From Escherichia coli (GTDB taxonomy: Bacteria; Pseudomonadota; Gammaproteobacteria; Enterobacterales; Enterobacteriaceae): a DNA stretch of 365 nucleotides. This document shows positions 1 through 365 of this stretch, piece by piece (the stretch's first letter is position 1; each line of letters begins with the position of its first letter). The stretch lies in NCBI RefSeq assembly GCF_003334385.1, contig NZ_QOWN01000189.1. The stretch is one strand, 5' to 3'. The translations under genes were made by a program, and so were the position numbers. The notes beneath the pieces are model-generated. The model was not told the DNA's origin, searched no databases, and saw only the letters and a list, made by a program, of their open reading frames with translations.

Positions 1-365
1 GCGCTGTTGGTCGCCAGGTAAAGATGCGGGCTTAACCGGATATCCGGCGGCAGCGCCCCCCACAGCCGCGCCAGCGTGTGGCCGTCCGGCTGCGCTGCCT
101 TACCACCGCGCACCAGCCACATTGACTCGCTGCGGCTGTACACCGCCTCCCCCGGCAGCAGCGGCTCAAAGTGAATGCTCCGCCCGCCGTTGTCGTTGAG
201 TACCAGTGCATCATCGCGTAGCTGTAAGCGGATATCAGAAGGCGCTTTCCAGCCGGGGCCAAACACTCCCACCGGCGCGGGTGTCCTGGTCCGGTAGCTG
301 CTGTAGGTGCGGGAGAGAATGAACGGCAGCGGGCCGGGCAGCGCAAGGTCCGTCTCGCCGGGCAG
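1..365 (-). CDS. rhs: Internal fragment (partial at both ends) of an Rhs-family protein gene, covering the conserved N-terminal region upstream of the YD-repeat core; in-frame codons run from + position 365 down to 3
   Basis: Seen in sequence: this minus-strand frame has 121 consecutive sense codons with no stop, while the other frames I translated (minus frame 3 and all three plus frames) contain stops. Third-codon-position GC is about 79% by hand count (25 of 121 codons end in A/T) and CTG dominates for Leu, as expected for a real gene in a GC-rich enterobacterial-type sequence. The translation reads as a plausible protein rather than the Arg/Cys/Trp-rich product of an off-frame read. Established knowledge (from memory, not searched): the stretch LPGETDLALPGPLPFILSRTYSSYR...GPGWKAPSDIRLQLRDD...NDNGGRSIHFEPLLPGEAVYSRSESMWLVRGG...LSPHLYLATNS closely matches the N-terminal region of E. 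coli-type RhsA/B/C proteins. Paralog cannot be assigned, so the symbol is given at family level only. Confidence 0.8.
   Translation of the reverse strand, partial: MPGETDLALPGPLPFILSRTYSSYRTRTPAPVGVFGPGWKAPSDIRLQLRDDALVLNDNGGRSIHFEPLLPGEAVYSRSESMWLVRGGKAAQPDGHTLARLWGALPPDIRLSPHLYLATNS

What the first reader, a model, noticed from the sequence alone, without database searches (positions are those of the whole stretch)
1..365. Window lies entirely inside an Rhs polymorphic-toxin gene on the minus strand
The only frame open across the full window is a minus-strand frame with no start or stop inside it, which is presumably why the ORF track did not list it. Its translation matches, from memory, the conserved N-terminal region of enterobacterial Rhs proteins. 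Rhs genes are accessory, recombination-prone loci that encode large YD-repeat proteins with variable C-terminal toxin domains and cognate immunity genes, often delivered by type VI secretion. This window itself is the conserved part, not the variable part.
Basis: partly seen in the sequence, partly recalled or inferred. Interest (0 to 1): 0.45.

Follow-up and report, generated by a model that had tools for sequence, protein, structure and literature searches.

The report
Fragment of an E. coli Rhs toxin gene
The window is an internal piece of a well-known Escherichia coli Rhs toxin gene, encoding the N-terminal plug and first wall strands of the protein shell that carries a bacterial-warfare toxin; it is ordinary and already annotated in thousands of genomes.

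Summary
The only stop-free frame is on the minus strand, starting at base 365. Its 121 aa match NCBIfam RHS_core (NF041261) at profile positions 58-178 (E 3.5e-75) and Pfam DUF6531.

The DNA is 100% identical to annotated "RHS element core protein"/"rhsD" genes in many E. coli chromosomes. 3,871 of 5,426 complete genomes have a match, and 1,163 records match at >=99%. It encodes residues 58-178 of 1,402-1,407-aa proteins that pass the RHS_core cut-off and have YD repeats, the Rhs-associated core domain, an AT-rich variable tip and small downstream ORFs.

It belongs to the RhsD-E subfamily: 95.9% identity to K-12 rhsD against about 78% to rhsA/B/C. Of 11 sampled 100% copies, 9 lie behind vgrG at the yncH (RhsE) locus and 2 at the ybbP (RhsD) locus, so the source locus cannot be fixed from 365 bases.

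By alignment to the Tse5 cryo-EM structure, the window starts 10 residues after the predicted N-terminal cleavage site. [quoted passage not shown]

One correction: the open frame alone is not significant, because 30% of shuffles have one. Homology and third-position substitutions carry the case. Already known; low interest.

The parts
1..365 (-). Internal fragment of an Rhs core gene (RhsD-E subfamily): codons 58-178 plus the first two bases of codon 179. There is no start or stop in the window.
   Evidence: Only open frame. NCBIfam NF041261 RHS_core positions 58-178, E 3.5e-75. 100% identical to annotated Rhs genes; the peptide is found exactly at aa 58 of five full-length proteins.
168..365 (-). 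Part encoding protein residues 58-123: the larger, C-terminal portion of the DUF6531 domain, which is the N-terminal plug of the Rhs cocoon. It includes the GR-I-F motif (residues 118-123), which aligns to Tse5 G115, R116, I118 and F120; the Tse5 paper names R116, I118 and F120 among the plug residues that hold the N-terminal fragment.
   Evidence: Pfam PF20148 at window aa 4-66 (E 4e-15) and aa 46-123 of the full protein. Alignment to Tse5 shell chain 8cp6_B. The Tse5 paper equates DUF6531 with the N-terminal plug, residues 48-124.
3..167 (-). Part encoding residues 124-178: the stretch after the plug that leads into the beta-barrel wall, upstream of the first RHS repeat that Pfam matches even weakly (aa 209-243, E 3).
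   Evidence: Covered by the RHS_core model. Aligns to Tse5 shell residues of about 125-164. Pfam RHS repeats start at aa 209 (E 3, not significant) and first reach E <= 0.001 at aa 365 of the full protein.
261..288 (-). Small multi-allelic patch (protein residues 83-92) that holds 8 of the 15 differences from K-12 rhsD. Most of them are synonymous.
   Evidence: clustering P of about 1e-4 under uniform placement. A third allele occurs in an O157 rhsD-locus copy. rhsA/B/C are not closer in the patch.

Best explanation
The window is an internal piece of an Escherichia coli Rhs ('rearrangement hot spot') polymorphic-toxin gene of the RhsD-E subfamily, read on the minus strand. It encodes residues 58-178 of a protein of about 1,400 aa. 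In the whole protein, a short PAAR-like N-terminal peptide (about residues 1-47) is inferred to dock onto a VgrG spike of a type VI secretion system. A YD-repeat beta-cocoon encloses a variable C-terminal toxin, which an internal aspartyl protease (DPxGL motif) cuts free. A small downstream gene is inferred to protect the producer. The window's own contribution is structural: it encodes most of the N-terminal plug (DUF6531) that closes one end of the cocoon and holds the N-terminal peptide, plus the first strands of the cocoon wall. It begins 10 residues after the predicted N-terminal self-cleavage site (N47|P48). Shown here: identity, frame, position in the protein, domain content, subfamily and gene neighbourhood of identical copies. 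Inferred from homologues: the plug function, the cleavage and T6SS delivery.
For: Frame. Family: NF041261 RHS_core E 3.5e-75 at positions 58-178; Pfam DUF6531. Identity: 100% to annotated Rhs genes, 3,871 of 5,426 E. coli genomes hit, 1,163 records at >=99%. Exact peptide at aa 58 of five full-length proteins. Those proteins score 2,750-2,777 bits against the curated cut-off of 2,000, and have YD repeats and the Rhs-associated core domain at 1181-1258. Pfam on the E. coli C protein (L001) gives DUF6531 at 46-123, RHS repeats, PF03527 and a DUF6973 tip. Core GC is 0.64 and tip GC 0.40. There are three different tips after the DPxGL motif in five strains, with different downstream ORFs. Subfamily: 95.9% to K-12 rhsD against about 78% to rhsA/B/C; the rhsDE subfamily is described in PMC2935791. 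Purifying selection acts in this frame. Structure mapping: E. coli residues 48-169 align to Tse5 shell residues 1-118, starting exactly at the post-cleavage Pro (E 2.8e-18). In Tse5 the plug is residues 48-124, equals DUF6531 and anchors the N-terminal fragment (PMC10684867). A similar plug is reported in Photorhabdus Rhs1 (PMC8636562). vgrG lies immediately upstream in 11 of 13 sampled copies.
Against: Nothing contradicts the identification. Limits: the window holds none of the family's hallmark YD repeats, the protease motif or the toxin, so those were verified only on full-length genes that contain the identical segment. 5 of 13 sampled near-identical copies are flagged as pseudogenes or truncated, so the source copy may not be functional. 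The N-terminal cleavage and plug role rest on a 121-residue alignment to Tse5 in which roughly 40% of positions are identical. In Tse5 that cleavage is dispensable for toxicity. No expression or secretion data exist for this E. coli protein in what I examined.
Confidence: 0.97

Rival explanations
1. The window comes from a dead Rhs remnant (a frameshifted, stop-interrupted or truncated copy) rather than from a working toxin gene.
For: 5 of 13 sampled copies at >=99.7% identity are flagged as pseudogenes: H1 frameshifted, H29 internal stop, H31 frameshifted, H33 internal stop, and H28, a 630-nt 5' fragment in Rosetta2-DE3 that still contains the whole window. The K-12 rhsE is itself a pseudogene.
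Against: Within the window there is no stop, no frameshift and no difference from intact genes. 8 of 13 sampled copies are annotated intact. This rival concerns the state of the gene, not what the sequence is.
Confidence: 0.35
2. The source copy is the orphan RhsD-locus gene (downstream of ybbP, no vgrG next to it) rather than the vgrG-linked gene at the RhsE position.
For: 2 of 11 sampled 100% matches are at ybbP-rhsD: LB14b full length and Rosetta2-DE3 truncated. Both are chromosomes of about 4.5 Mb with a single match each.
Against: 9 of 11 sampled 100% matches, and both 99.7% matches, are at yncH-vgrG-rhs. The only exact 60-mer match among the GTDB species representatives also carries a vgrG 3' end. 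K-12-type and O157-type rhsD alleles differ from the window at 15 and 7 positions.
Confidence: 0.2
3. A second, overlapping gene is encoded in the +1 frame of the same strand (window 32..346, 104 aa with a TTG start).
For: The +1 frame is open for 118 codons in RhsE-type alleles. Only 0.8% of codon-order shuffles give a run of >=104 codons.
Against: The frame is interrupted by a stop at gene nt 332-334 in K-12 rhsD, rhsA, rhsB and rhsC. Synonymous sites of the Rhs frame change freely (12 of the 15 differing codons against rhsD are synonymous). Runs of 96-111 open codons occur elsewhere in the +1 frame of this G+C-rich core. Five alternative frames were inspected, so the p-value is not corrected for that.
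Confidence: 0.01
4. The open frame is a chance product of G+C-rich non-coding DNA.
For: 30% of shuffles of the window have an open frame.
Against: E 3.5e-75 to RHS_core, 100% identity to annotated genes and a third-position substitution bias.
Confidence: 0

Closest known systems
E. coli Rhs core proteins at the yncH-vgrG-rhs (RhsE) locus, e.g. WP_000014859.1 in E. coli C and WP_000014864.1 in strain 2011C-4251
   Same: The 365 bases are 100% identical. The window peptide is residues 58-178 exactly.
   Different: Nothing within the window. The tips and downstream ORFs differ between strains, and the source strain's version is unknown.
E. coli K-12 RhsD (b0497, NP_415030.1)
   Same: Same subfamily (RhsD-E). 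95.9% nucleotide identity and 118 of 121 aa identical, at the same position in the protein.
   Different: 15 nucleotide differences, 8 of them in one 28-nt patch, giving R84K, A110G and V112I. It is an orphan locus without vgrG, and K-12 has no T6SS (the last point is from general knowledge).
E. coli K-12 RhsA/RhsB/RhsC (RhsABCF subfamily)
   Same: Same family and architecture, with a gap-free alignment over the 121 residues.
   Different: About 78% nucleotide identity, with 29 of 121 codons non-synonymous.
Pseudomonas aeruginosa Tse5 (PDB 8cp6), a T6SS Rhs pore-forming toxin
   Same: Same short N-terminal-peptide architecture. E. coli residues 48-169 align to the shell from its first post-cleavage residue (PVNPLLGAK against PVNPMLGSK). 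Both have the DUF6531 plug, and the GR-I-F plug motif aligns to Tse5 G115, R116, I118 and F120.
   Different: Roughly 40% of aligned positions are identical over this stretch. The toxin tip is different. The residue before the cleaved Pro is Asn in E. coli and Lys in Tse5. Cleavage and plug function have not been shown for the E. coli protein.
Photorhabdus laumondii Rhs1 (PDB 7q97)
   Same: Rhs cocoon with an N-terminal plug and two autocleavages. It aligns weakly to residues 41-165 (E 4.8e-5).
   Different: It has a long N-terminal region of about 290 aa with prePAAR, a transmembrane segment and a full PAAR domain, and it needs an EagR chaperone. The E. coli protein has only about 47 residues there, and its Pfam PAAR hit is not significant (E 0.28).

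Membership tests
Rhs core protein (NCBIfam NF041261 RHS_core, equivalog) | Full-length match to the RHS_core model above the curated cut-off (2,000 bits) | tested here: met
   The window alone scores 253.7 bits and E 3.5e-75 over all 121 aa at positions 58-178; as a fragment it cannot reach a whole-protein cut-off. Three full-length genes that contain the identical segment score 2,750-2,777 bits over positions 1-1261.
Rhs core protein | N-terminal plug domain (Pfam DUF6531, PF20148) ahead of the repeats | tested here: met
   PF20148 at window aa 4-66, E 4.2e-15, and aa 46-123 of the full protein, E 2.9e-18. This is the only family hallmark that lies inside the window.
Rhs core protein | Multiple YD / RHS repeats forming the cocoon | tested here: met
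   Not in the window. In genes with the identical segment: TIGR01643 YD_repeat in 6 stretches, and Pfam RHS_repeat matches between aa 209 and 961, of which eight have E <= 0.001 (aa 365-678).
Rhs core protein | Rhs-associated core domain ending in the DPxGL aspartyl-protease motif that marks the core/tip boundary | tested here: met
   Not in the window. TIGR03696 at aa 1181-1258 and PF03527 at 1154-1190. The motifs ...IDPMGL...MDPLGL and ...VDPLGL are each followed by unrelated sequence.
Rhs polymorphic toxin system | Variable, A+T-rich C-terminal tip followed by a small cognate (immunity) ORF | tested here: met
   There are three different tips among five strains with an identical window. Tip GC is 0.40 against core GC 0.64. 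The downstream ORFs differ with the tip: ydcD, dsORF-e4 or hypothetical. Immunity function itself was not tested.
Rhs polymorphic toxin system | Linkage to type VI secretion (adjacent vgrG) and T6SS-dependent delivery | tested here: inconclusive
   vgrG lies 66 nt upstream in 11 of 13 sampled copies, and 2 of 13 are at the orphan ybbP locus. The source locus of the window is unknown, and secretion is not testable with these tools.
RhsD-E subfamily of E. coli Rhs (clade I) | Core sequence close to rhsD/rhsE and about 20% diverged from rhsA/B/C | tested here: met
   95.9% to K-12 rhsD, 100% to RhsE-position genes, and 78.0-78.2% to K-12 rhsA/B/C. The subfamilies are described in PMC2935791.
Rhs cocoon with N-terminal autocleavage (Tse5 / Rhs1 type) | Cleavage before a conserved Pro at the start of the plug (PVxxxxG motif) | not testable with these tools
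   The motif N47|P48-VNPLLGAK aligns to Tse5 K47|P48-VNPMLGSK. It lies 10 codons outside the window. Actual cleavage needs mass spectrometry.

The most novel reading that the evidence does not exclude
The 104-118-codon +1-frame ORF that is open only in the RhsE-type allele (window 32..346, minus strand) might be a lineage-specific overlapping gene. A second unlikely reading: the identical copy in a 'Lentisphaerae' MAG scaffold might be a real inter-phylum transfer rather than mis-binning. Neither is strictly excluded, and both are very unlikely. The ORF is broken in all K-12 paralogs, and synonymous sites of the Rhs frame are unconstrained. The MAG scaffold is 96.8% identical to E. coli over its entire 3.5 kb.
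Probability: 0.01. Interest if true: 0.35.

Novelty: already known. Interest (0 to 1): 0.07.

Why it matters
It matters little beyond correct annotation. Rhs genes have been described in E. coli since the 1980s-90s, and their cocoon structure and T6SS delivery are established in homologues. The useful outcomes are practical. A 365-base read from this region cannot be assigned to one locus or strain, because the same sequence sits at two loci and in more than a thousand genomes. An open frame in 67% G+C DNA is not evidence on its own. The window maps to the least-studied part of the protein, the DUF6531 plug just after the N-terminal cleavage site, whose role in E. coli Rhs proteins has not been tested.

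Tried and rejected
(1) An overlapping +1-frame ORF (window 32..346) looked unusual, at p 0.008 under codon shuffling. I rejected it because a stop interrupts it in K-12 rhsD and in rhsA, rhsB and rhsC, and comparable open runs occur elsewhere in the core.

(2) RNA elements: Rfam at E <= 1 found nothing on either strand.

(3) Chi site, promoter-like sites, terminator-like sites, and direct or inverted repeats: none were found.

(4) Gene conversion from rhsA/B/C as the source of the clustered differences from rhsD: not supported. Identity to rhsA/B/C in the patch is 0.64, lower than elsewhere in the window. A tandem second Rhs gene in L002 looks closer in the patch by eye, but it is out of register in my comparison and was not properly tested.

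(5) Assigning a unique locus: this failed, because exact copies exist at both the RhsE and RhsD positions.

A 60-mer worked and found only one scaffold, probably mis-binned.

It was repeated correctly.

(8) Structure prediction and the very large protein searches were deliberately not run, because the identity was already settled at 100% nucleotide identity.

Full report
**Observation.** The window is 365 bases and 67% G+C. Six-frame translation shows one frame with no stop: the minus strand read from base 365. It gives 121 codons, LPGETDLALPGPLPF...LYLATNS, plus two bases of the next codon. The other five frames have 1-4 stops.

The open frame alone is weak evidence. 30% of mononucleotide shuffles of the window have at least one fully open frame. 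The case for coding rests on homology and on the substitution pattern.

**Identity.** The 121-aa translation matches the NCBIfam equivalog model NF041261 'RHS element core protein' over its whole length, at profile positions 58-178 of 1261 (E 3.5e-75). Pfam finds DUF6531 (PF20148) at window residues 4-66 (E 4e-15).

Megablast against 5,426 complete E. coli genomes finds matches in 3,871 of them, with a median of 3 places per genome. In 1,163 records the best match is >=99% identical. The annotated features under the matches are 'RHS element core protein' or 'rhs element protein RhsD', on the strand corresponding to the open frame.

In five full-length genes, the window peptide is found exactly at residue 58. 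The proteins are 1,402-1,407 aa.

Rfam, Chi-site, promoter, terminator and repeat scans found nothing else in the window.

**Family features on the full-length genes.** The window contains only one of the family's hallmarks, so I tested the others on genes carrying the identical segment.
- Three of them score 2,750-2,777 bits against RHS_core, whose curated cut-off is 2,000. They also have YD repeats and the Rhs-associated core domain at residues 1181-1258.
- Pfam on the E. coli C protein (L001) gives DUF6531 at 46-123, RHS repeats between 209 and 961 (eight of them with E <= 0.001, at aa 365-678), PF03527 at 1154-1190 and a DUF6973 tip.
- After the DPxGL motif the sequences become unrelated. 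There are three different tips among five strains, followed by different small ORFs such as ydcD and dsORF-e4.
- Core GC is 0.64 and tip GC is 0.40. This is the classical Rhs pattern described in PMC2935791.

**Frame under selection.** Against K-12 rhsD the 15 differences fall 1/2/12 by codon position, and 12 of the 15 changed codons are synonymous. Against rhsC they fall 21/16/45, and against rhsA and rhsB 21/16/46. The Rhs frame is the one being conserved.

The +1 frame of the same strand (window 32..346, 104 aa) is open for 118 codons in this allele, which only 0.8% of codon-order shuffles reach. It carries a stop at gene nt 332-334 in K-12 rhsD, rhsA, rhsB and rhsC, so I reject it as a gene.

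**Paralog and locus.**
- The window is 100% identical to the genes at yncH-vgrG-rhs-...-pptA-yddH-nhoA. That is the position of the K-12 rhsE pseudogene, which lacks this 5' part.
- It is 95.9% identical to K-12 rhsD and about 78% to rhsA, rhsB and rhsC. It therefore belongs to the RhsD-E subfamily.
- Of 11 sampled 100% matches, 9 are at the vgrG-linked RhsE position.
- The other 2 are at the ybbP-linked RhsD position: strain LB14b, full length, and Rosetta2-DE3, a 630-nt fragment.
- Two 99.7% matches are also at the RhsE position.

The locus therefore cannot be decided from the window; the RhsE position is about four times as likely in my sample. Five of the 13 sampled copies are flagged as pseudogenes, so the functionality of the source copy is also open.

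PGAP labels several RhsE-position genes 'rhsD'. That name reflects similarity, not position.

**Other species.** Among the GTDB species representatives, an exact 60-mer from the most discriminating part of the window occurs only in a 3,462-nt scaffold binned to a 'Lentisphaerae' MAG. That scaffold is 96.8% identical to the E. coli C vgrG-rhs region along its whole length and contains the window at 100%. It is most simply mis-binned Escherichia DNA.

**What this part of the protein does (inferred from homologues).**
- The first 200 residues of the E. coli protein align to the shell chain of the P. aeruginosa Tse5 cryo-EM structure (8cp6_B) at E 2.8e-18. The alignment starts exactly at the chain's first residue: E. 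coli P48-VNPLLGAKVLPGE against Tse5 P48-VNPMLGSKLLPEE.
- In Tse5, residues 1-47 are cleaved off between K47 and P48. Residues 48-124 form the N-terminal plug that closes the barrel, and the authors identify this plug with DUF6531. The plug holds the N-terminal fragment through residues that include R116, I118 and F120 (PMC10684867).
- In the alignment, Tse5 G115, R116, I118 and F120 correspond to a conserved GR-I-F in the E. coli protein (residues 118-123, window residues 61-66).
- So the window starts 10 residues after the predicted cleavage site. Bases 365-168 encode most of the plug, and bases 167-3 encode the first strands leading into the cocoon wall.
- Photorhabdus Rhs1 has an analogous plug and N-terminal cleavage (PMC8636562).
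- The E. coli protein has only about 47 residues ahead of the plug, as Tse5 does. The Pfam PAAR match there is not significant (E 0.28).
- Whether the E. coli protein is cleaved, and whether cleavage matters, is untested. It is dispensable in Tse5 and essential in Rhs1.

**Passing observation.** The 15 differences from K-12 rhsD are clustered, with 8 in sense nt 78-105 (window 261-288). The probability of that is about 1e-4 under uniform placement. An O157 rhsD-locus allele carries a third version of the patch. rhsA, rhsB and rhsC are not closer to the window in the patch, so I could not name a donor. A small recombination tract is plausible but unproven.

**Verdict.** This is an ordinary, already annotated segment of a well-known gene family. 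Novelty: already known. Interest: low.

Noticed in passing
window 261-288 (sense nt 78-105; protein residues 83-92): 8 of the 15 differences from K-12 rhsD are packed into 28 nt (P of about 1e-4 under uniform placement). The patch is multi-allelic: an O157 rhsD-locus copy has a third version. rhsA/B/C are not closer there, so no donor for a conversion tract was identified.
   Followed up: partly
window 32-346, minus strand, +1 frame relative to rhs: A 104-aa TTG-start ORF, open for 118 codons in the full gene. Only 0.8% of codon-order shuffles reach that length, but a stop interrupts it in K-12 rhsD/A/B/C, so it is not conserved.
   Followed up: yes
L011 (E. coli Rosetta2-DE3, NZ_CP083274.1) 6830-7800: The ybbP-linked rhs copy is identical to LB14b rhsD for 629 nt. 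It then abuts a tRNA-Arg/tRNA-Ser/csrA/alaS/recA region that lies about 2.3 Mb away in K-12 (the K-12 position is from general knowledge, not checked here). This is a rearrangement or deletion end inside an rhs gene, 93 nt beyond the window segment. Whether it is real or an assembly artefact was not checked.
   Followed up: partly
L020 (JALHET010000378.1, 'Lentisphaerae bacterium' MAG scaffold) 1-3462: The scaffold is 96.8% identical to the E. coli C vgrG-rhs locus over its whole length and holds the window at 100% (2265-2629). It is probably Escherichia DNA mis-binned into the MAG.
   Followed up: partly
L001, L003, L013 (RhsE-position genes): RefSeq/PGAP names the vgrG-linked gene at the K-12 rhsE position 'rhsD'. 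The gene name follows sequence similarity and does not indicate the locus.
   Followed up: yes
L010 (K-12 MG1655) 5891-7939: The K-12 rhsE pseudogene lacks vgrG and the 5' half of the core, including the segment in the window. Other strains carry the full vgrG-rhs pair at this position.
   Followed up: yes
L002 16114-18365; L005 12492-15272: Strain 600468 has a second RHS core gene in tandem, 81% identical to the window in the homologous stretch. Strain 214-4 has orphan Rhs tip fragments and a group II intron reverse transcriptase downstream of the rhs gene.
   Followed up: no
13 sampled copies at >=99.7% identity (H1, H3, H7, H14, H24, H27-H34): Five of the 13 are flagged as frameshifted, stop-interrupted or truncated. 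This suggests frequent decay of this locus, or sequencing errors in a long G+C-rich gene.
   Followed up: no
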